NCBI GenBank assembly: GCA_031082315.1
Contig: JAVHLC010000001.1
Span: 221,224-285,223 of the forward strand
Length of the DNA: 64,000 nucleotides
Direction: 5' to 3'
Source: Thermodesulfobacteriota bacterium
GTDB taxonomy: Bacteria > Desulfobacterota > QYQD01
The translations under genes were made by a program, and so were the position numbers. Every line of letters starts with the position of its first letter. Within the stretch, counting starts at the first letter, position 1. Positions 4,362 to 36,761 of the stretch are shown here, piece after piece. The notes under the pieces are model-generated. The model searched no databases. It had not been told where the DNA came from and was given only the letters and a program-made list of their open reading frames with translations.

Positions 4362-5939
4362 TTACCACAGATAAAAAAAGCGGTCTATAGAATCTATAAT
4401 TTTTACATCCAGGGGATACTTAAAATAGCGGTGTTTCCAGCGATACCAGGCGATATGGCCCAGCATATCTCGAACAACACCCGGAATATTCAGCCTCTTA
4501 AGCCGCTGCCGGGCAGTTTTCCAACTAAACGGCACACCCCTATGGGAGCACACGGATACTGCCCAGAGATAATCAACCAGGGGGTGCCACTCCGTATGGG
4601 AACGATGCCCGATCCTGAATTGTCCCCAATCGTATAAGGTTTTCGGGGGATCGAATCCCGCCTCCACAACCTTCTTATGGAGAGGGGTTCCCGGACAAGG
4701 GGCATACAAAAATATCTTGCCCAGTTGTACTGTTTCGGGATAGCCGTTGCGTAATTTATCTATGATATCCATGCTGAGTTCTACATCTCTTTTTTCTTCC
4801 CCGGGAAAACCGCACATCAGGTTCGTCATGAACGTCAAACCGGCTTCGTTTATTTGCTCAACGCCGCTTTTTATATCCCCAATGGTGCAATCCTTTTTAA
4901 TATAATCCAATATCTTCTGCGACCCGGACTCAACACCCACATAAACCTCTACAAGCCCTGATTCCTTTGCTCTTTTCCAAAAATCTACAGTGGTTCTTCT
5001 AAAATATTGAGCACGGCAGGAGGCATGCCATTTCATATCAAGCTTCATCCCTATAAGGCCTTCTATCACCGCAGTTGCACGTTTAAAGTCGGCAAAAAAA
5101 CAATCATCTACCAGGATCAGCTTATCGGGCTTGTATTTATCATAAATGCCTTTCATATCCTTTAAAACCATTTCAGCGCTTTTCTTTCTGAATGTCCTTC
5201 TATGGACCACCAAGACATCGCAAAACTGACACCGGTGAGGGCATCCTCGTTCTGACTGGTACAAAAAGCGGCTGAGGTCGTAATTGTCCATATTGAGCAA
5301 ACTGTAATCGAACTCTAATTGATCATTGAAAGAGAAAAAGGGTCTGTCCTGGTTATGAATTATTTCCCCATCCTTTTTATATGAAACACCATCAACTTTG
5401 GACAGGTCTCCGCCGTCTGTCAGACACTTGGCGAGTTCAGCTGCTGTATGCTCGCCCTCTCCCCGAACTACTATGTCTACAAATTCCGATGTTCTTAATG
5501 ACTGCTCCGGAGTCAATGTGACGTGCACGCCTCCAAAAACTATGGGTATTTTTGGATTCACCTTCCTGACGTGCTGCGCACACTGGAGGCCAAAAAAAAC
5601 ACTGCTGCCGGTAAGGCAAGAAATGCCGACAAAAACCACTTTGTCGTCAAGCTCTTCATTAAGTCTCTTGATTGAATCTTCAACCCTTCCATCTATTATT
5701 ACAGGTTCAAATCCGGCCTTTTGCAAATAAGGAGCAAGCGCTAGAACTGATAATGGCAGGGTCACTTTTTTCTGTAAAAGCCGGGAAAAAATATCTCTTG
5801 TTGCCTTGTAAATTAAAGGAGGCAGCTTGTCCTTAAGGTAAAGACCTATCTCTCCAGGCATTATCAATATAATCTTTTGGGCTTTATTGGAACTCATTCT
5901 CTTATTGTCTCTTTCGTATTTTTCCTGATTTGACGGCAC
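4362..5939 (-). CDS. B12-binding domain-containing radical SAM protein
   Basis: 525 aa. N-terminal cobalamin-binding-like Rossmann region (VFVGISCLTGSS...IVFGGVHVT) followed by a CxxxCxxC radical-SAM cluster motif (GCPHRCQFCDV). Confidence 0.75.
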   Translation of the reverse strand: MPSNQEKYERDNKRMSSNKAQKIILIMPGEIGLYLKDKLPPLIYKATRDIFSRLLQKKVTLPLSVLALAPYLQKAGFEPVIIDGRVEDSIKRLNEELDDKVVFVGISCLTGSSVFFGLQCAQHVRKVNPKIPIVFGGVHVTLTPEQSLRTSEFVDIVVRGEGEHTAAELAKCLTDGGDLSKVDGVSYKKDGEIIHNQDRPFFSFNDQLEFDYSLLNMDNYDLSRFLYQSERGCPHRCQFCDVLVVHRRTFRKKSAEMVLKDMKGIYDKYKPDKLILVDDCFFADFKRATAVIEGLIGMKLDMKWHASCRAQYFRRTTVDFWKRAKESGLVEVYVGVESGSQKILDYIKKDCTIGDIKSGVEQINEAGLTFMTNLMCGFPGEEKRDVELSMDIIDKLRNGYPETVQLGKIFLYAPCPGTPLHKKVVEAGFDPPKTLYDWGQFRIGHRSHTEWHPLVDYLWAVSVCSHRGVPFSWKTARQRLKRLNIPGVVRDMLGHIAWYRWKHRYFKYPLDVKIIDSIDRFFYLW

Positions 5940-7564
5940 CTTTTTTGGGCAAGTTCATCCATTCCCCTTAAGGTTTCCTTAAATTTTTTGTTGCCGCTCA
6001 GGTTATCTAACTCACCCGGATCGCTCTCTAAATCATATAACTCACTTGCGCCAGGATTATTGCCCTCGCTCCATATATATTTATATCTTTCCGTCCTGAT
6101 CGCAATATTAATTTTTTTTCTTTTGAGGTCACATGGTCCTCTCCCATTGTTTTCGCTTATTATGAATTCCCTGTCTTTAGCCGTTGAGCTATATACCGGA
6201 ACACCTTTGAACTGGGTTACCGGTCCGATTCCCATCAGATCCAGTATGGTAGGAGCAAGATCCAGCTGACTGCACATATTGGTTATTTTCTCCGGTTTTA
6301 GCCTGGCATTATAGAATATCATTGGCACCCTTATAAACTCGTCATAAAAAAGTGTTGCTTTGTGGCCTGACCGCTTAATACTGTTATCCTCCATTCCGTG
6401 GTCCGATGTAATTACTAATAATGTCTTATCCAACAAATCTTTTTCTTTTAAAAACCGAATCACTTTGCCCAGTTGATCATCAACGTATTTTATAGCTCTT
6501 CTTGTCGCATATTCATTATAATGTCCCTTAATCTCGTCCCTTTTTAACGTGACTCGTTTTTTCAGAAAGCTTCCGGAAATTGGAGGAAGCTGAATTTTGC
6601 CTGATGTATAATTCCCCTCGTGAATATCCAGAAAATGAGCCCATAAAAAAAAGGGGCTCTCACCCCTTTTATCAATCCAATCTATTATGCACTCTCTAAG
6701 ATATTTAGCACTAACAAAATGATCGTATTTTTTCAAGATATAAGAGTAACCGAATCCAAGCTTATTTTGAAGTCTTACCATTATATCTTCGATCGTTGCA
6801 TTAATGTATGCCTCCATTACTCCAAATGGGCTCTCCCCATACCTAGCAATATTAATAATCCGGTCGTATTTCAACTGCATATCAAATTGCTTTGACAGAT
6901 ATTCCTGCGGATTATTTTCGTATAGATCCAGCTCTCTTAATATCAGTTTTCTAAGCCTTGAATAATCATACGCATGGATAATAGGATTGTATCCAAAAGT
7001 ATTTTCCTTTATCTCGCGATTTTTTTCTTCACAAAACAAAACCAGATATTTGTATGATGCCTTTACTGCTTTGCCTGTAACTTCGCAGAATTCCTCGAAA
7101 TTGATTAATCCCTCTTTCATTAACTGGACGTAATAAGAAAAAAAATTCTTACTCAAGGATTTCCAGAACCTTTTTATGTTGTATATCTCGTGAAATTCGT
7201 CAAATCCCCTATCGTAATAATAAAATCTTCCCAAGAAGTTTACCGTGGCAAAGCCAGCGGTATAAAAACCGTTTCTTTTCATTACCTCCGTAAGGGTTAT
7301 TTCCCTGTTCTTTATCCCCCTGTTATATCCGCCACAATCTAACGGCAAAGTGGATGTAAAAATAGATGGGAAAGCCATTTGCGTCGGCTGTCCGTTTGAA
7401 AATGCATTTGCGCAAGATATGCCTTTCTTTGACAAATCATCCAGGAAAGGCGTGAGGCTTTCGGATTCCGTTGAATTTCCCAGTCTTGTATATGAAAGCG
7501 CGTCAATCGACAGAAATATTATGTTTTGCATTGTTAACGATGTGTCCAATAGGTGCTTTTCCAT
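5894..7564 (-). CDS. alkaline-phosphatase superfamily protein (sulfatase-like fold; Thr-nucleophile phosphotransferase-type rather than a formylglycine sulfatase)
   Basis: 556 aa. N-terminal IFLSIDALSYTRLG and the metal-site motif ITSDHGME. At the position where sulfatases carry C/S-x-P-x-R, the sequence reads GQPTQMAF, with Thr as in LtaS/EptA-type enzymes. No obvious TM segments. Confidence 0.5.
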   Translation of the reverse strand: MEKHLLDTSLTMQNIIFLSIDALSYTRLGNSTESESLTPFLDDLSKKGISCANAFSNGQPTQMAFPSIFTSTLPLDCGGYNRGIKNREITLTEVMKRNGFYTAGFATVNFLGRFYYYDRGFDEFHEIYNIKRFWKSLSKNFFSYYVQLMKEGLINFEEFCEVTGKAVKASYKYLVLFCEEKNREIKENTFGYNPIIHAYDYSRLRKLILRELDLYENNPQEYLSKQFDMQLKYDRIINIARYGESPFGVMEAYINATIEDIMVRLQNKLGFGYSYILKKYDHFVSAKYLRECIIDWIDKRGESPFFLWAHFLDIHEGNYTSGKIQLPPISGSFLKKRVTLKRDEIKGHYNEYATRRAIKYVDDQLGKVIRFLKEKDLLDKTLLVITSDHGMEDNSIKRSGHKATLFYDEFIRVPMIFYNARLKPEKITNMCSQLDLAPTILDLMGIGPVTQFKGVPVYSSTAKDREFIISENNGRGPCDLKRKKINIAIRTERYKYIWSEGNNPGASELYDLESDPGELDNLSGNKKFKETLRGMDELAQKRCRQIRKNTKETIRE

Positions 7565-7659: not shown

Positions 7660-8211
7660 TTATCCTAATTCCTTCTTGAAAAGAAGGCGCTGTTCGATTA
7701 TTTTTTCTGCAAAAGTGGTAAAGTTGTTGGTTTCCTCGTTGTTTTCCAGTACCAAATCACTATTTATCGGTTCTTCAAAGGAAAGATCAACGCCCACAAC
7801 GTTTTTCTCATCCCCTTTCATTGCTTTGCTATATAGGCTTTTCTGATCTCTCTTCAGCAGAACTTCCATTGAAACCTTGACATATATCTGGAAATAATTG
7901 TCTATGTTATTGCGGTTCCAGCATTGCACCTCATGATACAGCGACATTGTCGCGCAAACAACATTGACCCCCTGATCCGCAAGAAAGCAGCACATCCTTG
8001 AGATCCTATATGCGTTTTTTATTCTGTCTTTAGTGTTGTGCTGCAAATCGTTTCCCATTATTTCTCGCATTGCATCGCCATCCAGAAAAACTGCTTTTTC
8101 ATTCCTTGCAACAAGCGCTTTGAATAAAGCCAGCGCAATGCTTGTTTTACCTGCGCCGGCAAGCCCGGTGATCCAGTAAACAGTGCCTGTCTTATCCAGC
8201 TTTATATGCAT
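7660..8211 (-). CDS. cysC: adenylyl-sulfate (APS) kinase
   Basis: 183 aa. P-loop VYWITGLAGAGKTSIA and overall APS-kinase layout. Overlaps the next gene by 10 nt (operonic). Confidence 0.75.
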   Translation of the reverse strand: MHIKLDKTGTVYWITGLAGAGKTSIALALFKALVARNEKAVFLDGDAMREIMGNDLQHNTKDRIKNAYRISRMCCFLADQGVNVVCATMSLYHEVQCWNRNNIDNYFQIYVKVSMEVLLKRDQKSLYSKAMKGDEKNVVGVDLSFEEPINSDLVLENNEETNNFTTFAEKIIEQRLLFKKELG

Positions 8212-9005
8212 TGTCTCCGGTCGATACTAAGGGAATCGCCCACAGCCCTGCAAAAAGATTCAGCTAGGCGAAGATCGCGGAGGCTGTCTATTTCCACCCA
8301 TTTTCCATTGATAGGGATCTCGTAAACAGGCATATCCTCATCAATCAGCTCCTGAAGCATATCCGTCATGTAAAGCGTGTCTATCCTCATTTTTTCTCCG
8401 CCTTCTTGAGAAGACAGAAGGGTTGCTTCCTCGCTGTATTTGCGCCGCAGGACAGACAACCCATTACCCTGAAACACCATCAGGCCTATGTACTGCCCCT
8501 GTATATTCTCCACCTTGTCAGGTTTCTGACCGATCTCAAGTATCCTTCCGTCGGAATCAAGTTTCAGACTTTCGGCATCATCCAGGACGCTTTCAAAGCG
8601 CTTTTCCCAGTAAGAACGCCAATCGTGATCAACAACAACGCCGATCTCATGCCGGCATGAGACGACTTTCTCAAGAACTTCAGGTTCATAAACAATATCT
8701 CCATAGGAAACAACGATGCCTGAATCGAAGAATTTTTCCGCGTACCACAAAGTCCGCAGCATGTTTGTCTGCGCATATCTGGGATTTATGGCTATTGTCC
8801 ACTTCCCGCCTGGAATCGTTTCCGCTTTATGCCCGGCAACGATAACTATATCTTTTTCATTAACCCCGACCTTTTGTGCTGATAGTATCTGCCATTCAAG
8901 CAAATTTCTGCCGGCAAGCGGTAGCATACACTTGGGAATTTCGGTGGTAAGAGGCTGCAATCGCTGCCCCATGCCTGCTGCAAGTATAATCAGTTTCTTG
9001 CTCAT
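8202..9005 (-). CDS. sugar-phosphate or alcohol-phosphate nucleotidyltransferase (MobA/LicC-like NTP-transferase fold)
   Basis: 267 aa. N-terminal LIILAAGMGQRLQPLTTEIPKCMLPLAGRNLLEW signature of nucleotidyltransferases. Confidence 0.6.
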   Translation of the reverse strand: MSKKLIILAAGMGQRLQPLTTEIPKCMLPLAGRNLLEWQILSAQKVGVNEKDIVIVAGHKAETIPGGKWTIAINPRYAQTNMLRTLWYAEKFFDSGIVVSYGDIVYEPEVLEKVVSCRHEIGVVVDHDWRSYWEKRFESVLDDAESLKLDSDGRILEIGQKPDKVENIQGQYIGLMVFQGNGLSVLRRKYSEEATLLSSQEGGEKMRIDTLYMTDMLQELIDEDMPVYEIPINGKWVEIDSLRDLRLAESFCRAVGDSLSIDRRQCI

Positions 9006-9664
9006 GCCTGTTTGAAAATGTCAAAAAGCCAGGTATCGACTCCCCTGGCCGGATTGTTTCTTTCCGGATGCCACTGTACACCCCAGAAAGGCAGCCGTTT
9101 ATGCTTAATCCCTTCCACTATTCCATTGTCATCAACCGCGAAAGGATACATGTCCGGAGCGAGTGTTTCCAGGCTGACCCCGTGGTTATGGTATGAATTG
9201 ACTTCAAATCGAGCCTCCCACTCATGGGGCAATTCAATATAGTCCCTCAATAGGGTTACAGCATGCATCTTGTTTACATGGGTCCCTTTTCCTTTATCCG
9301 CCAGAAAGGGAACTATGGAGCCGCCGTAATAGCAGTTAAGTACGTGTAACCCGCGGCATACACCGACAACCGGAATGTACTTCTCTTCAGCAAAACGAAT
9401 CAGGCTTTCCTCCAGCGAGTCTCTTTCAGCGGCGCTATCAGGAGATCCTTCTATTCCGTAATCATTCCCGCTTGTCAAAAGAACGCCGTCGATATTCCCA
9501 AGCGCACTAAGGAAAGACAACGGGGAAGAGATTGCATTGGGGATAAGAACGGGACAGATATTCCTCTTTTCCAAAAAACCTATCCAGTCGTGGCTTATTG
9601 CATCCCTTTTTTCAGAGTAATTCTGATTTTCTATTACCCTAAGAGTGACTGCTACTTTCACCAT
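9002..9664 (-). CDS. class I glutamine amidotransferase-like / gamma-glutamyl hydrolase (peptidase C26, PuuD-like)
   Basis: GVCRGLHVLN nucleophile elbow and GVQWHPE His motif. Start moved to the internal Met (MVKVAVTLRVIEN) to avoid an 88-nt overlap with the upstream gene; the ORF track gives 9002..9757. Confidence 0.6.
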   Translation of the reverse strand: MVKVAVTLRVIENQNYSEKRDAISHDWIGFLEKRNICPVLIPNAISSPLSFLSALGNIDGVLLTSGNDYGIEGSPDSAAERDSLEESLIRFAEEKYIPVVGVCRGLHVLNCYYGGSIVPFLADKGKGTHVNKMHAVTLLRDYIELPHEWEARFEVNSYHNHGVSLETLAPDMYPFAVDDNGIVEGIKHKRLPFWGVQWHPERNNPARGVDTWLFDIFKQA

Positions 9665-9669
9665 AATTT

Positions 9670-12600
9670 CTAATCTATGATATTTACTCTCTTGCTCGAA
9701 CAGTCCAGCGTTATGAACCGGGAGTTGGAGACACGCTTGAAAAGAATCTCGCCGCATCCAATAGCTGCCGGCAGACCAAACTCAGCGGCCCTTATGGCCA
9801 TGTGCGAGGCAACCCCGCCGTATTGCGTAATAAGTCCTGCTATACCATGTACGAATATCCAGTCGAAGCCCGGATCAGCATTTCTTATGGCAACTATCTT
9901 TCCTTTTATGTTTTTACCCCATGTTGCGTGTTCCTCAAGAAGGATCACCTCGCCGCTGACCGTTTTAGAAGTAACAAAATTTGGTTTGCATTCAAGCAGC
10001 TCGAAGCTGTCTGAATCACCCGGCGTGCGGATGAGGTGGGGAAGCTTTATCGACTGATTGAGTTCGTACCTCTTTTTCTCGAATGAAATAAGTCGCCTAA
10101 GCTTGCTGGATATGGCGCTATGCCGGCTGTTATTGGTCCAGTTCAATATATCGTGTATAGAAAGGTGGGATAACTGGTCTTTGTCCAGTCCCCAGTAGCT
10201 ATTAAGTTTGGTGATCCACTCCAATGCAAGATTTACATTCTTGGTAAATTCGAACTTCGCAAATTCTCTTCCGCTGACCGCAGCGAAAATAAATTCCCGA
10301 AGCTGCGAAGGAGTGCATTTCATCCCGTTTTCATTGAGCATGTCTTCTATTTGGGAGAATTTTGTTTCCAGCAATTCCCATGCAGAAGATACCGCCTTCA
10401 GGCAGTTTCCGGAAGAGCGTTTGCCTATAGCCGGATTCAAATAAACATGTGCGGCCTCACGGTAATTGGGTGAAAGGATGTCATATGTTCCCGGCCGCAG
10501 GTGTCCGTACTTTCCAAGAAATTCCTCCCTGGACATACTGCCATTCAGCGTTAATTCCAGTGCATCTGCTATCTCGGTGGCGATAGTGGGAATATGCAAA
10601 CAAGCTTCATATTCCTCCTCCGTAAGCACTTCCTTGTTCTTCAAAGAGCGGAGGATTGCAAGCGCAATAAATCCATACCTGGCCAGAATACTGAATGGCA
10701 GGGTCCCATACCGGGAGCAGTCGTCCAATAATTGTTTAATCCTTGCCGGCATGGCTACCCTGCTGTCAGATGCCCCGATAAGGAGCACCCGCCTTCTCTC
10801 CATTTCCTTCAGGGCGTCCAGTTGCCGGCCGATCGGCATTATTTCACCTTTTATTATCCTATCCGTCTGTATAAGCAATGCCCGTTTAAGCTCTTCAATC
10901 TCTGACGCCGCAAGTCCCATTGAAAACAGGCGCCTGGAGTGTTCATCGAAGTCAAATGTAAAGCAGGTAACAGCAACTTCAAATTCTATTTTGTCGTGAT
11001 ATTCCGGGTTTTCAGCCAGATAACCGAGGTAACCATTAACGCATTTCTCTGCCGTCGCCCCGCTCACTTCGGCGGGGATGAAAGAGTTAAAGCTGACCCT
11101 CAGATCTATATATGGCTGCCCTGAAACCACAATCATAAGAGGAGACGGATAGGTATCCCTGTAACCTATCAATTTTCTAGCCTCTCCCCACACCCTGTCC
11201 GTAATCAGGTAATGGTAAAGCGAGATCGCCAGCAACCGTGGATGGGTGCCGATCATCTCCGCCGGGTTCCAGTCTGACATGTTGCTCAGAAGAGATGATT
11301 TGCCAAGCAGGTTTGTACTTAATTGAAAGGCCTCGGCCACAATCCTCTTTGCTTCCGTTATTTCAAAATCAAAATCATCGTCCGTAGGAATAAAATGCCG
11401 GCGCTTGGCGGCAATAGGCCGCACTTGCAGTACATATATACGACCGCTTTCATGCATGGCAAACTCAATGTCCAGTGAGTCATAACCAACCAGTGTTTCC
11501 ACTTCCCTTGCCATTTCTATAACTGACAAAAGCCTTTCATCGAGAGCGGAGAGGTCTCCTTTCTTATAGGCTAAAACGGTTTTAAGACCGTCGCTTGTGC
11601 CCGCAGTAACGGTGTCTGTTCGTTCCGTAACATGATAATTGATCACGTAATAGGGAGCACGTGTTTCAATGTCCCTTGTAAAAAGAACCCCACACATCAC
11701 AGTAGAATCAACAAAAGGCTGTATCAGCACCTGGTTGCCATCCTCCTCGGCGCCGTTTTCTCTGTAACTTGCTATGACCTTCTCGACGGCCTGCTTAATG
11801 TGCCGGGTAGAACCCGCATCAACATCAAGCACGCTTTTAAAACGTCCGGCGTTGGATGCCAACCATGCATCTTCCACCAAAGCGGAGCTCCTTACGACCA
11901 GTCGTTCAGTCTTTAAATGTGATCCAATTTTTTCTAAGACGGGCCCTTGCGCCGTCTGCCATTCCCTGACAGTGAATCTTACCTGGTCGAGAATCACGGC
12001 TGTTTTTAATAAAGGCTGTAAACGCTCAAGAGTTTGCGCCTTGCTCCCCAGAACAAAGCGGGCCAGTTCTCCGGGCCGGGTTAAAGAGGACCAATAGCCG
12101 GTAAGATCGACAAGCTGTACATCCACACCAGCTTCCAGCAGTTCCCGGACGAGGTCATGCAATTCAAGTGTCAGGTCCTTTTTTGTCAGCTCTTTAGCCT
12201 TATCAATCAGCGCTCCTGCACCGACATATGAGCATTTAATTAGTCCGGCGAATCTTATCTTTTTTCCCGCCTTATTGGGATAAAACAATACATGTTCGGT
12301 TAACTCCCCCGTCCCTCCCTCTGTTACAGGCTCGATACCAAATACAAGATCGGCCCTTTCTTTCAACAATGCCTTGACCGCTTTTGGACGGAATACACTC
12401 CTGCCGTCAATTACCAACCCGCCTTTTCGTACAAGATATTCCGCATCAAGCAGAGCCTTGAGAGTCCCTTCCTTCTCCCAGTTAGAGTGAAAATGGTAAT
12501 GCAGGTCCGGATATTGCTGAACCACCTTTTCCATGTGGTAGCCGCCTATGTATGTTATGGAAGATATCCCTTCTTTCTTTAAGGCGGCAATGTTCCAATC

Positions 12601-12708
12601 CAGCGCCGATTCATTGCTGCGTATCTTTTTAAGCGAAGTTGGATAACTCTTTTTTGAGTCCAGGAAGCGTACGCCGTAAGAGGAGTCAATTATTATCGTA
12701 TTGATCAT
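9670..12708 (-). CDS. PEP-utilising enzyme family protein (PEP synthase / pyruvate-phosphate-dikinase-like phosphotransferase) with extra N-terminal domain
   Basis: 1012 aa. Central PPDK_N/ATP-grasp-like region (RSSALVEDAWLASNAGRFKSV) and C-terminal PEP-utiliser mobile His domain (GGVASHMAIRAAEFGLPAAIGCG). The N-terminal ~250 aa form an additional nucleotide-binding-like domain. Confidence 0.6.
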   Translation of the reverse strand: MINTIIIDSSYGVRFLDSKKSYPTSLKKIRSNESALDWNIAALKKEGISSITYIGGYHMEKVVQQYPDLHYHFHSNWEKEGTLKALLDAEYLVRKGGLVIDGRSVFRPKAVKALLKERADLVFGIEPVTEGGTGELTEHVLFYPNKAGKKIRFAGLIKCSYVGAGALIDKAKELTKKDLTLELHDLVRELLEAGVDVQLVDLTGYWSSLTRPGELARFVLGSKAQTLERLQPLLKTAVILDQVRFTVREWQTAQGPVLEKIGSHLKTERLVVRSSALVEDAWLASNAGRFKSVLDVDAGSTRHIKQAVEKVIASYRENGAEEDGNQVLIQPFVDSTVMCGVLFTRDIETRAPYYVINYHVTERTDTVTAGTSDGLKTVLAYKKGDLSALDERLLSVIEMAREVETLVGYDSLDIEFAMHESGRIYVLQVRPIAAKRRHFIPTDDDFDFEITEAKRIVAEAFQLSTNLLGKSSLLSNMSDWNPAEMIGTHPRLLAISLYHYLITDRVWGEARKLIGYRDTYPSPLMIVVSGQPYIDLRVSFNSFIPAEVSGATAEKCVNGYLGYLAENPEYHDKIEFEVAVTCFTFDFDEHSRRLFSMGLAASEIEELKRALLIQTDRIIKGEIMPIGRQLDALKEMERRRVLLIGASDSRVAMPARIKQLLDDCSRYGTLPFSILARYGFIALAILRSLKNKEVLTEEEYEACLHIPTIATEIADALELTLNGSMSREEFLGKYGHLRPGTYDILSPNYREAAHVYLNPAIGKRSSGNCLKAVSSAWELLETKFSQIEDMLNENGMKCTPSQLREFIFAAVSGREFAKFEFTKNVNLALEWITKLNSYWGLDKDQLSHLSIHDILNWTNNSRHSAISSKLRRLISFEKKRYELNQSIKLPHLIRTPGDSDSFELLECKPNFVTSKTVSGEVILLEEHATWGKNIKGKIVAIRNADPGFDWIFVHGIAGLITQYGGVASHMAIRAAEFGLPAAIGCGEILFKRVSNSRFITLDCSSKRVNIID

Positions 12709-12747: not shown

Positions 12748-13776
12748 CTAACCATTTACAAGACTTTTTGATGTCCGATAGATGCCCTGCATGGTTTTGA
12801 AAACGTTTAACCTTATAAATATTAACAGCAAAAATTCCCGCATGGGGAGATGCTTTAAGGTGTGGATATTCGCTTTTGGATATTTCCAGTAAAAGAATGG
12901 TCGAAATTGCGAAAGCGCATAGCTAAGGCAATCGATTTCCTTCTTATCCAGACTATCTTTATGTGATCCTATAGGCTCTCTGGAGATACCGTTAAATTTA
13001 ATGTTTTGCTGTGAATTTCCTGACCACGGTATGCCATAGCTTGTTGGTGTTTTTAAAGAATCGTGGAAAGATATTTTTAGAAAGTCACATATCTTTTTAA
13101 TATTTTCTTCCTGGCCTTCCAGCAAGTCTTCAAACCGAATGATCATTATCCTTTGGGGATTTCTTTTCTTCAACCATACAATTTTTCTACTTGATTCAAG
13201 CCACTCGTTACAGAACGAAACGGCCGTAACGACACCGCCTTTCTTCTTCATTTTTTTCCGGTACGAGGCGAAATTATCATAAGGGTCCCGCACTAAGTGT
13301 ATAGCTTTTGCATTGGGATACCATTTGAAAAAAAGATCCAGATAAAGCTCGTTGCCATGGGTCTTTTCAATCCACATCTTCGGTTTTGTGCCTTTAAACC
13401 GGGACTTCTCATAAAAGCTCTTTAATAAACTCAATTGCAGGCTTTTTGCCGATTCTCCATCCCAATTCTCCTTAATACTATGACTAAACGCTTCAAAATC
13501 AAAATCGTTATAGTCACGATCCCCGCCTGCTAGAGATGCTCTTTTATGATGAAGACTGTAGATACCTGTTTCCGGCCCGGATGTTAAAAATTTTTCTATA
13601 TTGAAATCATTTACAAACAAACCGTCACGTCTTATTATAGCCCGAAGGTTTGTTTCAACAGGCATAACAAGAAGTTCAGGATGGCCATCTAAAATGTTCC
13701 TCAAAAGAGTTGTTCCGGATGTAGCATGGCCGGTAATAAAAACAGGGTGGTCTAAAAATCCATACTCTGACATCAT
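12748..13776 (-). CDS. PAPS-dependent sulfotransferase
   Basis: 342 aa. 5'-PSB-like FITGHATSGTTLL and classic 3'-PB motif HLVRDPYDNFAS. Confidence 0.7.
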   Translation of the reverse strand: MMSEYGFLDHPVFITGHATSGTTLLRNILDGHPELLVMPVETNLRAIIRRDGLFVNDFNIEKFLTSGPETGIYSLHHKRASLAGGDRDYNDFDFEAFSHSIKENWDGESAKSLQLSLLKSFYEKSRFKGTKPKMWIEKTHGNELYLDLFFKWYPNAKAIHLVRDPYDNFASYRKKMKKKGGVVTAVSFCNEWLESSRKIVWLKKRNPQRIMIIRFEDLLEGQEENIKKICDFLKISFHDSLKTPTSYGIPWSGNSQQNIKFNGISREPIGSHKDSLDKKEIDCLSYALSQFRPFFYWKYPKANIHTLKHLPMREFLLLIFIRLNVFKTMQGIYRTSKSLVNG

Positions 13777-13779
13777 GCT

Positions 13780-15213
13780 TCAATTCAGCCCTGCTGATTT
13801 TCCATCGGCAACGCTTTCTATTAACTTTGCAACCCGCAAACCTGCCTTCCCATCGTTAAACGGGTTGTACTTCAGTTGCAATTCGTTTCTCTGTTTTGAT
13901 TTTTCCTTTGGATGTTTCAGCGCATTTTTTATAAGCTCAACGAGATTTGACGGGGATGAAGCTATATCGGGCGCTCCTGTGGCCATCATCGGCTGATAGC
14001 AGGGATATTCAAGCTCATGCCTTCCAAACTCATCCTGCTCGCTGCCTTTCAGACCTGTCCACTCGTATATAGGCCAGATGATCGGCTTATCAAAATATAC
14101 GGAGTCAAGTGTAATTGTTGATGCGTAGTTGATTATCACGTCGCTGTGCTTCAAAAGGTTTCCAAGGTGGTAAAGAGAGGACGGATCGTTCTTCCATCTG
14201 TGATCCGGCCTTATACTTGGAAAGCACGAGCTATCGGGCACATCGTATATAACATCGGGTATCGGCCCAAGAGTATGACAGTACTGAAGCCTTGTAAGAC
14301 CATGTATTTCACGGATAATCAATTGTGCTTTTTCCGCAAATCCTCCGTTCTGAATAGTCTCAATAATTGATCTGATGTTTTCGCTTTCCTTGTAGTTTGA
14401 ATATTTGCCGCCCCTCGATATATACGTGATGACTTTTTTTGAAGGATCCGCCCCGATGCTTTTTAAAAACGCCGAACGTTCCATAAGCCAGTCATCGTTA
14501 AGGAGGTAATCATGTTGTGGAATGCCTACCGTAAGCACGCTTTCCTCTTTTAACTGAGGATAAAGATAGAGCATCTCGCTTCTCATGATTTCATTCCAGA
14601 CAGTAATATAATCGGCGGGTTCCAGTATTCTCCCTTTCGCTGTAAGGTTATCCCAGCTATGTATCATGCTTATGGTCGGAATGCGGCGATGTTTTGCGTT
14701 AATGACCAACTGCACATCGCCGTCAACGAAGGGGTGTGATGAAAACAAGGCTGAGGGCTTATATTCGTCTATCATATTTTGGTAGTAGGGGCTGATGTAA
14801 ATCTTGCGGACGTAATCAACAGCCCGGCGGTTTAAGAAGGGAAACAGGATAAATATTTTTCCGAAAATGCGATTGAAAAGTTCATCACGTTTGTTAAACT
14901 TGTCTTTCAAAATCAGGTTCAGGGGAACTCCGTGAAAAGACTTCCCGTTGTAAAAGTAGTAGCGGTCTCCATAACGATAAATTCTGAAAATCAGCTTATT
15001 AAGCAAGCTTTTTTTAATTTCAAACACCGATGGTTTAATAACAACGTTTTCTCTTTTAAACTCTTTGTTAAACTCAGGATCATCTGCCATGCTTGAGAAA
15101 ATAACAGTCCTGAACCTGGATGCAAGGTAGTCATAGAAGGGATTGCGGAGGAAGTTCCGGGCAGACATAGGATACGGTAACGAAAGAAATATAGTTTTCT
15201 GCCCGGACATCAC
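13780..15213 (-). CDS. hypothetical protein, possibly TagB/TagF-like CDP-alcohol glycerophosphotransferase family
   Basis: 477 aa, soluble. Weak resemblance to TagF C-terminal motifs (KKVITYISRGG...; YASTITLDSVYFDKPII). Confidence 0.3.
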   Translation of the reverse strand: MMSGQKTIFLSLPYPMSARNFLRNPFYDYLASRFRTVIFSSMADDPEFNKEFKRENVVIKPSVFEIKKSLLNKLIFRIYRYGDRYYFYNGKSFHGVPLNLILKDKFNKRDELFNRIFGKIFILFPFLNRRAVDYVRKIYISPYYQNMIDEYKPSALFSSHPFVDGDVQLVINAKHRRIPTISMIHSWDNLTAKGRILEPADYITVWNEIMRSEMLYLYPQLKEESVLTVGIPQHDYLLNDDWLMERSAFLKSIGADPSKKVITYISRGGKYSNYKESENIRSIIETIQNGGFAEKAQLIIREIHGLTRLQYCHTLGPIPDVIYDVPDSSCFPSIRPDHRWKNDPSSLYHLGNLLKHSDVIINYASTITLDSVYFDKPIIWPIYEWTGLKGSEQDEFGRHELEYPCYQPMMATGAPDIASSPSNLVELIKNALKHPKEKSKQRNELQLKYNPFNDGKAGLRVAKLIESVADGKSAGLN

Positions 15214-15286: not shown

Positions 15287-16438
15287 TCACCCCTTATTTC
15301 CTCGCACGAAATCCATGAACCTTTCTTTCACTTGCACAGGGCTCAGGTTTGGTCTGCCAAGGTCGGAAGCCGCTCCGCTTTTGACTTTCACATGGACGAT
15401 GTGAGGCCCGGGTGACGCGCACGCCCTTTTGATCTCTTTCTCCAGTTCCTCTCTCTCATAAACTGTTACCGCCGATGCAAAACCGCATGCTATCGCTATT
15501 TCAGGAAAATTTACGGAGCCGGACAAGGTCTGCTGGCCACCGGTAGATTCGTATGCCTCATTATCCAGCAAGAAGTGAATGTAATTGGAGGGAGCAAAAT
15601 GACCTATTGAAACCCACGACTCCAGGCGCATAAGCGCCGCTCCATCACCGTCAAGAACGGCGACTCTTTTTCCCGGCTGATACATGGCAAGCCCGAGTCC
15701 GATGCTGGACGCGCATCCCATTGAGCCCACAATGTACATCTGGTTAGGGAGGTCATGCATCGCAAATAGCTCTCTTGATATCTTTCCCGTGGTAGAAACA
15801 ACCATGGTCTGCATCCCCAGAAGCCCCGTGATTATCTCAATCGCTCCCGCACGGCGCAATCTGAGATCACCTCTTTTAGCACACGGGATCAGTTTCCCCC
15901 TGTAAAGGCGCTTGCCCTCATTTTTTGCAGTCTCTACTTTTTCAACCGAGTCCTTACGCATTATGAAAGAGTAGGGGAGACCGCTTTTTTCCATTGTATC
16001 CAGCGCGGCATCTATGCCCTTTTCAATGTTTTCTTCCTTGTCTGGAAAGAAATCGTTTTTCACTTTCATTATGTCCAGCATATCAACCGTTATTTTTCCC
16101 ATTAGCTCATGTTGTGGTTCATCCTTTATCCCGGTTTCTCCACGCAGGGTTATAATCATCAAAATAGGAATCCGATAAACGTAATTCAGAGAGGTTAACG
16201 GGCTCACACAATTCCCCAGCCCGGAGTTCTGCATCATTACAACCGGGCGCTTTCCGGCAAGATAGGCGCCGGTTGCCACGGCAACCGCTTCTCCCTCATT
16301 GTTTACCGGGAGATATTCCAACTTTTCCGATTTAATAGCATAATTGATCAACGGTTTTATAAAGGAGCAGGGAACACCAATAAACGGATTTTGCCCTTTT
16401 GAATTAAGGAGTTCTAAAAAATTACCAGCCCTAATCAA
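15287..16438 (-). CDS. phosphonopyruvate decarboxylase (TPP-dependent, fused alpha/beta)
   Basis: 383 aa two-domain TPP enzyme with the GDG(X)n-N motif (LDGDGAALMRLESW). The size and context, next to a PEP mutase and an AEP transaminase, fit Ppd/AepY. Confidence 0.7.
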   Translation of the reverse strand: MIRAGNFLELLNSKGQNPFIGVPCSFIKPLINYAIKSEKLEYLPVNNEGEAVAVATGAYLAGKRPVVMMQNSGLGNCVSPLTSLNYVYRIPILMIITLRGETGIKDEPQHELMGKITVDMLDIMKVKNDFFPDKEENIEKGIDAALDTMEKSGLPYSFIMRKDSVEKVETAKNEGKRLYRGKLIPCAKRGDLRLRRAGAIEIITGLLGMQTMVVSTTGKISRELFAMHDLPNQMYIVGSMGCASSIGLGLAMYQPGKRVAVLDGDGAALMRLESWVSIGHFAPSNYIHFLLDNEAYESTGGQQTLSGSVNFPEIAIACGFASAVTVYEREELEKEIKRACASPGPHIVHVKVKSGAASDLGRPNLSPVQVKERFMDFVRGNKG

Positions 16439-17601
16439 TGTAAGGCCTCCATAGGCATCGTTATCCCCATCTGTCCAAGAGTCTCCTCAAGTGCATTCAA
16501 AAAATTAATCACATCACCTTTATCTATTGCGCCCATGTTTGCAATTCTGAATGTATCCATTTTGCTTATTTTCCCGGGATAAATCGTAAAGCCACGTTGA
16601 TAGAGCATATCGTGGAGTTTTTCAAAACTAAAATAAGGGCTTGCAGGGAAATAGACAGTGGTCAGTATCCGCGACTGCAGGCCTTCAGGCAACAAAAACC
16701 TGAAGCCTAACTTACGCAAGCCGTCTGTAAGGGTATGCCAGTTTTCCGAATATCGTCTATGGCGAAAAATTCCCCCCCCTTCTTCGAAATACTCTTTTAA
16801 TGCCTGTCTGAGTGCATATACCAACTGTACGGGGGGTGTAAAGGTCATCTCTCTTTTTTCTTCCCAGTAGCGGTACTGCCGGTAAAGATTCAGGTAAAAA
16901 GAACGCGGCGGTATCTCTGAGAGTTTATCCAGCGGTTCTTTTCTGGCGATCACGAAAGAAAGGCCCGCCATTCCTTGAATACACTTGTTTGATGTTGACA
17001 TTATGTAGTCAATTTCATGCCTTTTGACATCAATCGGGATCCCTGCATAAGAGCTTATGGCGTCAATGATAACCTCGCGTCCCAGCCTTTTTGCGATAGC
17101 GCAGACGTCTTCCAGCGGGTTGAGCATCCCGGTAGAGGTCTCATGGTGAACCATCGCTACGTGCGTAACATCTTTGTTTTCAATCAATACTTTTTCCAGC
17201 AAAAGCAGGTCCGGCGGGTCAGTCCACCTGAAAGACAGCTCAAGAAAACCTATGCCATACGCTTCGGCTATTTTCACCATCCGCTCGCCGTATGCTCCGT
17301 TGTTGATAATCAATACTCTCTTCCCCGGTTTTATTGTGGAGTTGATCGTCGCGTCCATGACGGCAGTACCCGAGCCCGAGAAAAGCACGCAAGCGTATCT
17401 TTCGTCAGCGCCTACAACTTCCAAAAGGCCACGCCGAACTTCCTCCATAATTATGGAAAAATCTTTTTCGCGGGGGCAGATATCCGGCACAACCAATGAC
17501 AGCTTCACGCTGTCTGTGGTAGTGGCAGGTCCGGGATTAAGAAGTATGTTCCGTTTTATGTTTAACCCCATGGGATGATGCTCCTTTTTTTTCTGCGGCA
17601 A
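16435..17601 (-). CDS. 2-aminoethylphosphonate:pyruvate aminotransferase-like (class V PLP aminotransferase)
   Basis: 388 aa. NILLNPGPATT start and the PLP-lysine region MSTSNKCIQG of class V aminotransferases. Context is a phosphonate cluster. The start may be the internal Met (MGLNIK). Confidence 0.65.
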   Translation of the reverse strand: MPQKKKEHHPMGLNIKRNILLNPGPATTTDSVKLSLVVPDICPREKDFSIIMEEVRRGLLEVVGADERYACVLFSGSGTAVMDATINSTIKPGKRVLIINNGAYGERMVKIAEAYGIGFLELSFRWTDPPDLLLLEKVLIENKDVTHVAMVHHETSTGMLNPLEDVCAIAKRLGREVIIDAISSYAGIPIDVKRHEIDYIMSTSNKCIQGMAGLSFVIARKEPLDKLSEIPPRSFYLNLYRQYRYWEEKREMTFTPPVQLVYALRQALKEYFEEGGGIFRHRRYSENWHTLTDGLRKLGFRFLLPEGLQSRILTTVYFPASPYFSFEKLHDMLYQRGFTIYPGKISKMDTFRIANMGAIDKGDVINFLNALEETLGQMGITMPMEALH

Positions 17602-18298: not shown

Positions 18299-18324
18299 AT
18301 CCCGCCTATAACCTTCGTAAAATT

Positions 18325-19050: not shown

Positions 19051-19081
19051 CTCTCCTTATCCTTTTACAGAATTCCTGATT

Positions 19082-19855: not shown

Positions 19856-19881
19856 AAGTTATCGCAGTATTTTGTATTCTA

Positions 19882-20790: not shown

Positions 20791-20794
20791 TTAT

Positions 20795-36641: not shown

Positions 36642-36761
36642 TATTCAAGAGATGCGTAATGGGTCATGAGTGATTAGCAAGAAAAGGACATAGCTCCGCT
36701 TTGTCGGTTACATACGTATTACCTGGTAACCGATTAAGGGGTGATTGATGGGTAGGTTAAA

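What the first reader, a model, noticed from the sequence alone, without database searches (positions are those of the whole stretch)
9670..12708. 1012-aa PEP-synthase/PPDK-like phosphotransferase with an extra N-terminal domain inside a glycan locus
The protein has the two hallmark modules of PEP-utilising enzymes: an ATP-grasp/PPDK_N-type nucleotide domain and the swivelling phospho-His domain (GGVASHMAIRAAEFG). It also has about 250 additional N-terminal residues, and it sits between a glutamine-amidotransferase-like gene and a sulfotransferase. Enzymes of this family that are not PEP synthase act as ATP-dependent phosphotransferases toward small molecules (e.g. rifampicin phosphotransferase). 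Here the likely substrate is a sugar or the polymer itself, which would be an unexplored way to phosphorylate a polysaccharide.
Basis: partly seen in the sequence, partly recalled or inferred. Interest (0 to 1): 0.6.

Follow-up and report, generated by a model that had tools for sequence, protein, structure and literature searches.

The report
Glutamine kinase starting phosphoramidate glycan decoration
This gene most likely encodes a glutamine kinase, the first enzyme of a known four-step pathway that makes a nitrogen-phosphorus (phosphoramidate) decoration for surface sugars; it does not phosphorylate a sugar, but it carries an extra, apparently inactive, domain that has not been studied.

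Summary
ORF 9670-12708 (-) encodes a 1012-aa protein with an ATP-grasp (PPDK_N) domain, a helical middle domain and a C-terminal swivelling phospho-His domain (GGVASH969M). It has no PEP/pyruvate TIM barrel, and about 214 extra N-terminal residues. The interpretation (a sugar or polymer phosphotransferase) is not supported. The protein matches NCBIfam NF004508 end to end. Homologues 36-41% identical are named "glutamine kinase" by JGI. It heads a tightly coupled operon: kinase, Peptidase_C26 amidotransferase (best match gamma-glutamyl-CDP-amidate hydrolase), nucleotidyltransferase, APS-kinase homologue. This is the gene order of Campylobacter jejuni Cj1418-Cj1417-Cj1416-Cj1415, which makes 3'-phospho-CDP-amidate, the donor of capsule O-methyl phosphoramidate. 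The kinase-hydrolase-transferase core recurs in about 76 of 83 related loci across many phyla. The extra domain is a paralogue of the pathway's cytidylyltransferase that has lost the catalytic residues here. It is common in environmental homologues and I found no description of it. So this is a known enzyme kind in a variant architecture. In passing: loci with the kinase often carry sulfotransferase-fold genes, including the upstream neighbour here, whereas kinase-less loci carry TagF-like genes. These may be the two phosphoramidate transferases.

The parts
9670..12708 (-). Long-form L-glutamine kinase homologue (Cj1418 family), 1012 aa
   Evidence: NCBIfam NF004508 scores 869 bits against a cut-off of 501 and covers residues 215-1011. 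Homologues 36-41% identical are named 'glutamine kinase' by JGI. Pfam finds PPDK_N and PEP-utilizers. The AF2 model and Foldseek give a rifampin-phosphotransferase-like architecture.
12067..12708 (-). N-terminal nucleotidyltransferase-like domain (aa 1-214), probably catalytically dead
   Evidence: hhalign of this domain family against the standalone cytidylyltransferase family gives probability 99.96%, E 3.9e-39, and the domain lacks a ~35-residue insert. Foldseek hits PntC, RmlA and LicC. In this protein the G-loop is IIIDSSYGVRF where the family consensus is IILGAGRGxRR, the PK lysine is Thr24, and YGD is DGR.
11404..12042 (-). ATP-grasp nucleotide-binding domain (aa 223-435)
   Evidence: Pfam PPDK_N. 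AF2 secondary structure. Invariant K223, R273, E279, D280, Q330, E415, Q428, R430.
10009..11382 (-). Central all-helical domain (aa 443-900), presumed glutamine-binding domain
   Evidence: The AF2 model is helical here with pLDDT mostly above 90. It aligns to the rifampin-binding domain region of RPH. Invariant motifs: M477-x-DWNPAE484, D572-K-x-EF576, G735-HLR738, R814-E-x-x-K818.
9673..10008 (-). Swivelling phospho-histidine domain (aa 901-1012); catalytic His969 at nt 9802-9804
   Evidence: Pfam PEP-utilizers 935-1005. GGVASH969M is invariant in 120 homologues.
9002..9664 (-). Class-I glutamine amidotransferase / Peptidase_C26, predicted gamma-glutamyl-CDP-amidate hydrolase (Cj1417-like)
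   Evidence: Pfam Peptidase_C26. The best NCBIfam hit is NF045546, gamma-glutamyl-CDP-amidate hydrolase, at 102 bits (below its cut-off of 250; the next family scores 54). GVCRG and HPE catalytic motifs are present. The gene lies immediately downstream of the kinase in nearly all of the 76 loci that carry it.
8202..9005 (-). Standalone nucleotidyltransferase with intact motifs, predicted CTP:phosphoglutamine cytidylyltransferase (Cj1416-like)
   Evidence: Pfam NTP_transferase and NTP_transf_3. Intact LAAGMGQRL, PKCML and YGD motifs. Closest solved structure is LicC, 1jyk. Found in 77 of 83 loci, typically right after the amidotransferase. Its start overlaps the upstream stop as ATGA.
7660..8211 (-). 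APS-kinase homologue of the cassette type, predicted cytidine diphosphoramidate 3'-kinase (Cj1415-like)
   Evidence: Pfam APS_kinase. NCBIfam NF004041, 196 bits. It carries the cassette-type signature (LQH for LGFS, VVG for FTG, plus a WNR motif) that separates it from the true CysC found in L001, L009 and L075. The same kinase type is fused to the glutamine kinase in L077 and L079. It overlaps the upstream gene by 11 nt.
12748..13776 (-). Sulfotransferase-fold protein immediately upstream. It is either a candidate phosphoramidate transferase using the PAPS-like donor (hypothesis) or a genuine sulfotransferase.
   Evidence: Pfam Sulfotransfer_3. A 3'-phosphate-binding motif RDPYDNFAS is present. 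Strong homologues (>200 bits) occur in 11 of 31 kinase-containing loci and 0 of 52 kinase-less loci. The adjacency to the glutamine kinase is kept in L001, L002, L068 and L083.
13780..15213 (-). TagF-like CDP-alcohol phosphotransferase (Glyphos_transf). Candidate transferase for CMP-aminoethylphosphonate or a CDP-type donor; its role is unresolved.
   Evidence: Pfam Glyphos_transf. It has an orthologue in L001 next to the phosphonate genes. It belongs to a different subfamily from the TagF-like cluster of the kinase-less loci.

Best explanation
The gene encodes a long-form L-glutamine kinase (Cj1418 family, EC 2.7.3.13).

Mechanism, inferred from the family:
- The ATP-grasp domain binds ATP.
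- His969 on the swivelling C-terminal domain picks up phosphate. ATP ends as AMP plus Pi, as in PEP synthase and rifampin phosphotransferase.
- The His domain carries the phosphate to the helical middle domain, where it is transferred to the amide nitrogen of free L-glutamine.

The three genes translationally coupled downstream then act in turn:
- The nucleotidyltransferase (8202-9005) joins phosphoglutamine to CTP, giving CDP-glutamine.
- The Peptidase_C26 amidotransferase (9002-9664) cuts off glutamate, leaving cytidine diphosphoramidate.
- The APS-kinase homologue (7660-8211) phosphorylates the 3'-OH, giving a PAPS-like donor.
- A separate transferase puts the phosphoramidate on the glycan made by this roughly 36-kb locus. 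The same locus also makes 2-aminoethylphosphonate.

The extra N-terminal domain is a duplicated copy of the pathway's cytidylyltransferase. In this protein it has lost its catalytic residues. It most likely acts as a docking or regulatory module, for example pairing with the active cytidylyltransferase so that labile phosphoglutamine is handed on.

Shown here: domain architecture, family membership by profile, operon conservation, degeneracy of the N-terminal domain.
Inferred: substrate, chemistry, role of the N-terminal domain.
For: Family.
- NF004508 scores 869 bits (cut-off 501) over residues 215-1011. All PEP-synthase, PPDK, RPH and PigC models fall far below their cut-offs.
- Proteins of the same length, 36-41% identical, are named 'glutamine kinase' by JGI.

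Architecture.
- PPDK_N plus a C-terminal PEP-utilizers domain, no TIM barrel.
- AF2 model pLDDT 88; best PDB match is rifampin phosphotransferase, E 5e-24.
- His969 and the substrate-domain motifs are invariant.

Operon.
- Four genes with a 5-nt gap, an ATGA overlap and an 11-nt overlap.
- The amidotransferase's best family is gamma-glutamyl-CDP-amidate hydrolase.
- Among 83 related loci from bacteria and archaea, 76 have the amidotransferase (almost always directly downstream) and 77 the nucleotidyltransferase.
- The APS-kinase homologue is a distinct cassette type. It is fused to the glutamine kinase in L077 and L079.

Literature.
- Cj1415-Cj1418 make CDP-phosphoramidate 3'-phosphate from glutamine, ATP and CTP (PMC11800397).
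- A preprint on Borg elements made the same inference for a similar cluster next to a PepM fusion (10.1101/2024.11.05.622173).

N-terminal domain.
- hhalign E 3.9e-39 to the standalone cytidylyltransferase family.
- The catalytic G-loop, the PK lysine and the YGD aspartate are lost here.
- The standalone enzyme is still present in 58 of 63 long-form loci.
Against: - I could not obtain the Cj1418 sequence, so there is no direct alignment to the characterised enzyme. The link rests on an unnamed NCBIfam model, on JGI names for homologues and on operon context.
- The amidotransferase scores below the equivalog cut-off (102 against 250 bits), so exact orthology to Cj1417 is not proven.
- No biochemistry exists for any long-form member.
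- No phosphoramidate has been reported from this lineage.
- The docking role for the N-terminal domain is speculation. Most family members keep a plausible GAGRGxRR loop, so in other members the domain might bind a nucleotide or even be active.
Confidence: 0.85

Rival explanations
1. One reading: an ATP-dependent dikinase that phosphorylates a sugar or the polysaccharide itself, in the manner of plant alpha-glucan water dikinase.
For: The same superfamily includes glucan water dikinases (established knowledge). The gene lies in a large glycan locus with glycosyltransferases, a flippase and Wzz.
Against: Pfam detected no carbohydrate-binding module. The middle domain is the conserved helical domain of the NF004508 family. 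The gene is locked in an operon with a gamma-glutamyl hydrolase and a nucleotidyltransferase in about 76 of 83 loci, which only makes sense for a small-molecule glutamine-derived intermediate.
Confidence: 0.04
2. A bifunctional enzyme: the N-terminal domain is an active cytidylyltransferase, so that one polypeptide makes CDP-glutamine from glutamine, ATP and CTP.
For: The N-terminal domain is a clear homologue of the pathway's cytidylyltransferase. Other pathway enzymes are fused at the same position elsewhere: an APS-kinase domain in L077 and L079, and a CTP_transf_like domain in L050. Many family members keep a GAGRGxRR loop.
Against: In this protein G8, G10, R/K11, the PK lysine and the YGD aspartate are replaced by D, S, Y, T and R. 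The whole family lacks a ~35-residue insert of the active enzymes and rarely keeps the lysine (9 of 120). A standalone enzyme with intact motifs is encoded two genes downstream here and in 58 of 63 long-form loci.
Confidence: 0.07
3. A rifampin-phosphotransferase-like or PigC-like enzyme acting on another small molecule (antibiotic inactivation or natural-product ligation), or a true PEP synthase.
For: Rifampin phosphotransferase is the best solved-structure match. There are weak NCBIfam hits to PpsA, RPH, PigC and RedH.
Against: Those scores are 44-66 bits against cut-offs of 598-1350, while NF004508 scores 869 bits. There is no TIM barrel. Identity to RPH is 13-14%. The operon context is specific to the phosphoramidate pathway.
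Confidence: 0.03

Closest known systems
Cj1418, L-glutamine kinase of Campylobacter jejuni (EC 2.7.3.13), with Cj1417, Cj1416 and Cj1415
   Same: Same superfamily and the same three-domain kinase core. Same four-gene order: kinase, Peptidase_C26 hydrolase, nucleotidyltransferase, APS-kinase homologue. Same setting in a surface-polysaccharide locus with SAM methyltransferases nearby (PMC3907429, PMC11800397).
   Different: About 214 extra N-terminal residues form a degenerate cytidylyltransferase-like domain that the ~790-aa short forms lack. The host is a Thermodesulfobacteriota MAG, not Campylobacter. The locus also makes aminoethylphosphonate.
Rifampin phosphotransferase RPH-Lm (PDB 5hv1, 5fbs)
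   Same: The order ATP-grasp, helical substrate domain, C-terminal swivelling His domain. No TIM barrel. Best structural match, E 5e-24.
   Different: 13-14% identity. The RPH equivalog model scores 44.5 bits against a cut-off of 999. Different substrate and genomic context. RPH has no N-terminal nucleotidyltransferase-like domain.
PEP synthase (PpsA) / pyruvate phosphate dikinase
   Same: PPDK_N and PEP-utilizers domains and phospho-His chemistry.
   Different: In those enzymes the His domain is central and is followed by a PEP/pyruvate TIM barrel. Here the His domain is C-terminal and there is no barrel. The PpsA model scores 66 bits against 598.
Borg (Methanoperedens extrachromosomal element) cluster Cobalt 308-311
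   Same: A predicted glutamine kinase, hydrolase and cytidylyltransferase next to a PepM-nucleotidyltransferase fusion, i.e. P-N and P-C pathways side by side (10.1101/2024.11.05.622173). The window has the same PepM-NTP_transf_3 fusion at 20795-22456.
   Different: Archaeal element versus bacterial chromosome. The preprint does not describe an N-terminal domain or the kinase/transferase dichotomy. No sequence comparison was made here.
LicC/PntC-type cytidylyltransferases (for the N-terminal domain)
   Same: Same fold (Foldseek E about 1e-8 to 6pd1/6pd2, 1jyk). Clear profile homology to the cassette's own cytidylyltransferase.
   Different: G-loop, PK lysine and YGD aspartate are not conserved in this protein, and a ~35-residue segment is deleted.

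Membership tests
L-glutamine kinase (Cj1418 family, EC 2.7.3.13) | ATP-grasp (PPDK_N-type) nucleotide-binding domain | tested here: met
   Pfam PF01326, 52.7 bits. ATP-grasp at residues 223-435 in the AF2 model.
L-glutamine kinase (Cj1418 family, EC 2.7.3.13) | C-terminal swivelling domain with the phospho-accepting histidine | tested here: met
   PF00391 at 935-1005. His969 in GGVASHM is invariant in 120 homologues and lies 43 residues from the C-terminus.
L-glutamine kinase (Cj1418 family, EC 2.7.3.13) | Full-length match to the family profile above its curated cut-off | tested here: met
   NF004508 (PRK05849) equivalog, 869 bits against a cut-off of 501, model positions 6-788 of 789. Caveat: NCBI still labels the model 'hypothetical protein'. 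The link to glutamine kinase comes from JGI names of homologues.
L-glutamine kinase (Cj1418 family, EC 2.7.3.13) | Direct sequence similarity to, and phylogenetic grouping with, the characterised Cj1418 | not tested
   I found no route to the Cj1418 sequence. C. jejuni was not among the 80 loci returned, and the primary papers are not held.
L-glutamine kinase (Cj1418 family, EC 2.7.3.13) | Operon with gamma-glutamyl-CDP-amidate hydrolase and phosphoglutamine cytidylyltransferase (and a CDP-amidate kinase) | tested here: met
   All three follow the gene with a 5-nt gap, an ATGA overlap and an 11-nt overlap. The core is conserved in 76-77 of 83 loci.
L-glutamine kinase (Cj1418 family, EC 2.7.3.13) | ATP + L-Gln + H2O -> AMP + Pi + N-phospho-L-glutamine | not testable with these tools
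   Needs an enzyme assay.
PEP synthase / pyruvate phosphate dikinase | C-terminal PEP/pyruvate-binding TIM barrel (PEP-utilizers_C) | tested here: not met
   No Pfam hit. The model ends with the His domain, and the middle domain is all-helical.
PEP synthase / pyruvate phosphate dikinase | Score above the curated family cut-off | tested here: not met
   NF005057 66 bits against 598; TIGR01418 57 against 740; TIGR01828 21 against 843.
Rifampin phosphotransferase | Equivalog-level sequence match | tested here: not met
   NF041857 44.5 bits against 999. Fold and domain order are shared, but identity is 13-14%.
Sugar-phosphate/phospho-alcohol nucleotidyltransferase (for the N-terminal domain) | Rossmann-like NTP-transferase fold | tested here: met
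   Foldseek hits to PntC, RmlA and LicC. hhalign probability 99.96% to the cassette's cytidylyltransferase family.
Sugar-phosphate/phospho-alcohol nucleotidyltransferase (for the N-terminal domain) | Catalytic signature: G-x-G-x-R loop, Lys of the P-K motif, Asp of Y-G-D | tested here: not met
   This protein has DSSYGVR, P-T and D-G-R at those positions. The importance of these residues is taken from established knowledge of GlmU, RmlA and LicC.
Alpha-glucan water dikinase (polysaccharide-phosphorylating dikinase) | Carbohydrate-binding module(s) and a His domain placed before the nucleotide-binding domain | tested here: not met
   No CBM in Pfam. The domain order is nucleotide-binding domain first, His domain last.

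The most novel reading that the evidence does not exclude
The phosphoramidate pathway may exist in two mechanistic versions, and this locus may point to the transferase of one of them.

- Version 1, with the APS-kinase homologue (as here): the donor is 3'-phospho-CDP-amidate, a PAPS look-alike. The sulfotransferase-fold protein next to the glutamine kinase (12748-13776) would be the phosphoramidate transferase. A fold known for sulfuryl transfer would then be moving a phosphoramidate.
- Version 2, without the kinase: a TagF-like enzyme would use CDP-amidate directly.

In addition, the dead N-terminal cytidylyltransferase domain of the long-form kinase would dock the active cytidylyltransferase to channel phosphoglutamine. 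The product here would be a glycan carrying both P-N and P-C groups.
Probability: 0.3. Interest if true: 0.7.

Novelty: new variant of a known kind. Interest (0 to 1): 0.42.

Why it matters
Phosphoramidate decoration of glycans is described in the literature as essentially a Campylobacter speciality (PMC6429109, PMC3907429). This window and its relatives suggest otherwise.
- The pathway genes occur in at least 597 species genomes from many bacterial and archaeal phyla.
- They form about 1570 sequence clusters at E<=1e-30.
- Most of the closest relatives are a long form with an extra domain that, as far as I could find, nobody has examined.

Correct annotation matters in practice, because these proteins are deposited as 'PEP-utilizing enzyme' or 'PEP/pyruvate-binding domain-containing protein'.

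The comparative data also give testable candidates for the transfer step: sulfotransferase-fold proteins in kinase-containing loci and TagF-like proteins in kinase-less loci. In Campylobacter that step is assigned to Cj1421/Cj1422 from gene knockouts (PMC11800397). To my knowledge, which I did not check here, it has not been reconstituted biochemically.

Finally, the locus pairs P-N and P-C chemistry on one glycan.

Tried and rejected
- Primary papers. I tried to read the Raushel-lab papers (PMC5629633, PMC6643271, PMC5938751, PMC5938747); none is held. Pathway facts are cited from later open papers instead.
- Cj1418 and Cj1421 sequences. I looked for a route to them. The genome scan returned only the 80 best loci and no Campylobacter. 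PDB holds no structure of the four enzymes. The AFDB library was unavailable.
- PpsA/PPDK, RPH and PigC/RedH membership: rejected on scores and on the missing TIM barrel.
- The N-terminal domain replacing the standalone cytidylyltransferase: rejected, because 58 of 63 long-form loci keep both.
- Single-linkage cluster 3 looked like a conserved unknown protein. It turned out to be a chain of APS-kinase and methyltransferase ORFs and was dropped.
- The 235-aa ORF 3603-4310 has no Pfam or NCBIfam hit and no homologue in the related loci.
- L055, L057 and L081 looked like split long forms in the tblastn table. They are true short forms; the N-terminal match there is the standalone transferase.
- The cluster-7 TagF-like profile does not hit the window's TagF-like protein. 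The window protein is therefore not assigned to that group.
- Literature searches for MeOPN plus sulfotransferase found nothing relevant.


Full report

Yes. ORF 9670-12708 on the minus strand starts with ATG and encodes 1012 aa. An identical protein is in NCBI as "PEP-utilizing enzyme" from a Thermodesulfobacteriota MAG, on a 404-kb contig.

Pfam finds PPDK_N (residues 259-356) and PEP-utilizers (935-1005), both above their gathering thresholds, and no PEP-utilizers_C. The motif GGVASHMAIRAAEFG lies at residues 964-978, with the histidine at 969 (nt 9802-9804).

An AlphaFold2 model built on 40 homologues is confident (pLDDT 88.3, pTM 0.84). It shows four parts:
- an alpha/beta domain, residues 1-220
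- an ATP-grasp, 223-435
- an all-helical domain, 443-900
- a beta-rich swivel domain, 901-1012

Against the PDB, the best matches are rifampin phosphotransferase structures (5hv1, E 5e-24; 5fbs, 5fbt). Nucleotidyltransferases (PntC 6pd1/6pd2, RmlA, LicC 1jyk) follow and cover the N-terminal domain.

One correction concerns the downstream amidotransferase. It most likely starts at Met32 (nt 9664), 5 nt after the target's stop codon, not at 9757.

**2. What is it?**

*Family.* NCBIfam gives one overwhelming hit: NF004508 (PRK05849, an equivalog of 789 positions, still labelled "hypothetical protein"). It scores 869 bits against a cut-off of 501 and covers residues 215-1011. PEP synthase, PPDK, rifampin phosphotransferase and PigC/RedH models score 21-66 bits against cut-offs of 598-1350. 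In the 5.8-billion-protein collection the best 120 relatives are all 960-1247 aa long, and several at 36-41% identity are named "glutamine kinase" by JGI.

*Neighbourhood.* On the same strand, directly downstream, lie three genes:
- A Peptidase_C26/class-I amidotransferase. Its best NCBIfam family by far is gamma-glutamyl-CDP-amidate hydrolase (NF045546, 102 bits, below the cut-off of 250).
- A nucleotidyltransferase with intact LAAGMGQRL, PKCML and YGD motifs.
- An APS-kinase homologue.
The junctions are a 5-nt gap, an ATGA overlap and an 11-nt overlap, so this is one operon.

*Match to the known pathway.* This is the gene order cj1418-cj1417-cj1416-cj1415 of Campylobacter jejuni. [quoted passage not shown] Cj1418 is the ATP-dependent L-glutamine kinase that phosphorylates the amide nitrogen, and it was formerly mis-annotated as PEP synthase/PPDK (PMC10971088, PMC6429109). 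Mutants of cj1416-cj1418 lose the O-methyl phosphoramidate of the capsule (PMC3907429, PMC3546167).

**3. Is the context conserved?**

I collected 83 related loci. They span Proteobacteria, Bacteroidota, Planctomycetota, Verrucomicrobiota, Actinomycetota, Chloroflexota, Cyanobacteria, CPR, haloarchaea, Methanosarcinales and DPANN. An exhaustive HMMER scan found 1570 50%-identity representatives at E<=1e-30.

In the 83 loci:
- The amidotransferase is present in 76, almost always starting within 0-7 nt of the kinase's stop codon.
- The nucleotidyltransferase is present in 77, typically right after it.

Such a conserved kinase/gamma-glutamyl-hydrolase/nucleotidyltransferase trio fits a glutamine-derived small-molecule intermediate. 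It does not fit a sugar or polymer substrate.

The APS-kinase homologue is present in 31 of the 83 loci. It is not an ordinary CysC:
- Cassette-linked kinases share a signature. LGFS becomes LGH(T/S), REENIRR becomes R.KNA.R, ISP becomes LS(L/I), FTG becomes VVG, and a WNR motif is added. This sets them apart from the true CysC copies found in L001, L009 and L075. The window's protein has the cassette signature.
- From my knowledge of APS-kinase structures, the two replaced phenylalanines are the ones that sandwich the adenine. That would fit a switch to a cytidine substrate.
- In two loci (L077, L079) this kinase type is fused to the N-terminus of the glutamine kinase itself, a Rosetta-stone link.

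**4. The extra N-terminal domain**

Short forms of the family (about 780-830 aa) begin at residues ~214-220 of this protein. They correspond to the length of the NF004508 model. From memory, Cj1418 is of this short type; I could not check that here.

The N-terminal domain family is a clear homologue of the cassette's own standalone cytidylyltransferase family (hhalign probability 99.96%, E 3.9e-39). It lacks a ~35-residue segment present in the active enzymes.

| Position | Family consensus | Active nucleotidyltransferases | This protein |
|---|---|---|---|
| G-loop | IILGAGRGxRRLD | LAAGxGxRL | IIIDSSYGVRF |
| P-K motif | Lys kept in only 9 of 120 | PK | P-T |
| Y-G-D motif | Asp kept in 77 of 120 | YGD | DGR |

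The window protein therefore lacks G8, G10, R/K11, the lysine and the aspartate. I conclude that the domain is catalytically dead here. This is an inference from the known roles of these residues in GlmU, RmlA and LicC.

The domain does not replace the standalone enzyme, which is present in 58 of 63 long-form loci and in this window. The N-terminus of the kinase seems to be a hot spot for fusions with pathway partners: an NTP-transferase-like domain in most, an APS-kinase domain in L077 and L079, and a CTP_transf_like domain in L050. In L013 the domain is a separate ORF, split off by a single stop codon.

My best guess is a docking or regulatory role. It might pair with the active cytidylyltransferase, since these enzymes commonly dimerise, or it might sense a cytidine nucleotide. 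This is not tested.

**5. Mechanism**

*Shown here:* the architecture, the invariant His969, invariant ATP-grasp residues, and invariant motifs in the helical domain (M477xDWNPAE, D572KxEF, G735HLR, R814ExxK).

*Inferred by analogy with the family:*
- ATP binds the ATP-grasp.
- His969 is phosphorylated, with ATP ending as AMP plus Pi.
- The His domain swivels to the helical domain.
- The phosphoryl group is transferred to the amide N of L-glutamine.
- The cytidylyltransferase then makes CDP-glutamine.
- The amidotransferase releases glutamate to give cytidine diphosphoramidate.
- The kinase makes the 3'-phosphate.

**6. The wider locus**

All genes from about 36 kb down to 82 are on the minus strand and form a surface-glycan locus. 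It contains:
- *Export and regulation:* a NusG paralogue, Wzz and a flippase.
- *Nonulosonic acid synthesis:* NeuB and a CMP-sugar synthetase.
- *2-Aminoethylphosphonate pathway:* a PepM-NTP_transf_3 fusion (20795-22456), phosphonopyruvate decarboxylase (15287-16438), an aminotransferase (16435-17601) and a PntC-like cytidylyltransferase (17537-18298).
- *Candidate transferases:* a CDP-alcohol phosphatidyltransferase, a TagF-like protein and a glycosyltransferase.
- *Modifying enzymes and others:* several SAM methyltransferases, a B12-radical-SAM enzyme, a sulfatase-family protein and a heparinase II/III-like protein.

The closest relative of the target (L001, 67% identity) has the same gene set in a different order. 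The same juxtaposition of P-N and P-C pathways was noted in Borg elements (10.1101/2024.11.05.622173).

**7. A lead on the transfer step**

Across the 83 loci the kinase and a particular TagF-like cluster are nearly exclusive. This TagF-like cluster is of the Pfam Glyphos_transf family and usually sits right after the cytidylyltransferase. It occurs in 0 of 31 kinase-containing loci and 28 of 52 kinase-less loci (Fisher p = 8e-8).

Conversely, an iterative search seeded with the window's sulfotransferase finds strong homologues (>200 bits) in 11 of 31 kinase-containing loci and 0 of 52 kinase-less ones (p = 5e-6).
- They often sit inside the operon or directly upstream of the glutamine kinase (L001, L002, L083).
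- The carriers include a CPR Nomurabacteria operon with no sulfate-activation genes in view and DPANN archaea (L029, L051).
- These proteins keep the 3'-phosphate-binding RDP...S motif.
- The 64-kb window has no CysD, CysN or true CysC.

A mechanistically tidy reading follows. The PAPS-like donor would be used by a sulfotransferase-fold transferase, and plain CDP-amidate by a TagF-like one. For the second there is a precedent of a CDP-amino-acid phosphotransferase in the C. difficile flagellar glycan pathway (10.64898/2026.02.12.704994).

Caveats:
- The associations follow clades of the kinase tree, so independent events are few.
- L001 carries genuine CysC, CysD and CysN in the same locus, and the window has a sulfatase-family gene, so real sulfation remains plausible.
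- I could not check whether the Campylobacter transferases Cj1421/Cj1422 have this fold.
- The window's own TagF-like protein belongs to a different subfamily and sits next to the phosphonate genes.

**8. Comparison with known systems, and verdict**

The protein works like Cj1418 and meets every family feature I could test. A direct alignment to Cj1418 and the enzyme activity remain untested. It is not a PEP synthase/PPDK (no TIM barrel, scores far below cut-off). It is not a rifampin phosphotransferase (same architecture, 13-14% identity). It is not a glucan-water-dikinase-type polymer kinase (no CBM, different domain order).

Novelty: a new architectural variant of a known enzyme kind, in a lineage and glycan context where phosphoramidates have not been reported.

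Interest is moderate. The main identity is already known biology. The widespread long form, the apparent breadth of the pathway and the candidate transferases are worth follow-up.

Noticed in passing
window 15287-22456 (-): A complete 2-aminoethylphosphonate pathway lies next to the phosphoramidate cassette. It comprises a PepM fused to NTP_transf_3 (20795-22456), phosphonopyruvate decarboxylase (15287-16438), a class-V aminotransferase (16435-17601), a PntC-like cytidylyltransferase (17537-18298), a CDP-alcohol phosphatidyltransferase (19082-19855) and two SAM methyltransferases. The glycan or lipid may therefore carry both P-C and P-N groups.
   Followed up: partly
L001-L083 (related loci), e.g. 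L003 18933-20063, L018 14425-15603: A TagF-like (Glyphos_transf) gene follows the cytidylyltransferase in 28 of 52 loci that lack the APS-kinase homologue and in 0 of 31 that have it. It is a candidate CDP-amidate:acceptor phosphoramidate transferase for a kinase-less version of the pathway.
   Followed up: partly
window 12748-13776 (-); L002 8311-9927, L083 8002-9381, L084 16607-17638: A subfamily of sulfotransferase-fold proteins co-occurs only with kinase-containing cassettes (11 of 31 against 0 of 52). The carriers include CPR and DPANN genomes, and one of them shows no sulfate-activation genes nearby.
   Followed up: partly
L077 9563-12511; L079 9401-12316; L050 9512-12457: Alternative N-terminal fusions occur on the glutamine kinase: an APS_kinase domain (an Alphaproteobacteria MAG and an Eremiobacteraceae MAG) and a CTP_transf_like domain (a Methanosarcinales archaeon).
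   Followed up: partly
window 7660-8211 (-) and APS-kinase homologues in the related loci: Cassette-linked APS-kinase homologues have lost both phenylalanines that, in true APS kinases, stack on the adenine (LGFS becomes LGH(T/S), FTG becomes VVG), and they gain a WNR motif. This could serve as a sequence signature for telling CDP-amidate kinases from CysC in annotation.
   Followed up: partly
window 4362-5939 (-): A B12-binding radical SAM enzyme. Its NCBIfam matches include HpnJ, PhpK-family P-methyltransferases and the Sden_1168 family of P-methyltransferases, all below cut-off. It may be a C- or P-methylase acting on the phosphonate.
   Followed up: no
window 5894-7564 (-) and 82-2247 (-): A sulfatase-family protein (556 aa; only the C-terminal half matches arylsulfatase or choline-sulfatase) and a heparinase II/III-like protein lie at the end of the locus. 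The sulfatase-family orthologue is kept in L001.
   Followed up: no
window 24017-26753 (-): NeuB and CTP_transf_3 (nonulosonic acid synthesis and activation). The same two families are enriched in kinase-containing cassette loci (7 vs 1 and 7 vs 2 loci), so a nonulosonic acid might be the decorated sugar.
   Followed up: no
window 36027-37364 (-): A NusG paralogue and a small winged-HTH protein sit at the head of the ~36-kb minus-strand glycan locus. This suggests RfaH/LoaP-type antitermination of the long operon.
   Followed up: no
window 3603-4310 (-) and 26717-27520 (-): Two ORFs of 235 and 267 aa inside the locus have no Pfam hit. The first also has no NCBIfam hit and no homologue in the 83 related loci.
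   Followed up: partly
L013 9971-12955: In a Kangiellaceae MAG, a single stop codon separates the N-terminal nucleotidyltransferase-like domain from the kinase ORF. This is either a sequencing error, a pseudogene or a naturally split form.
   Followed up: no
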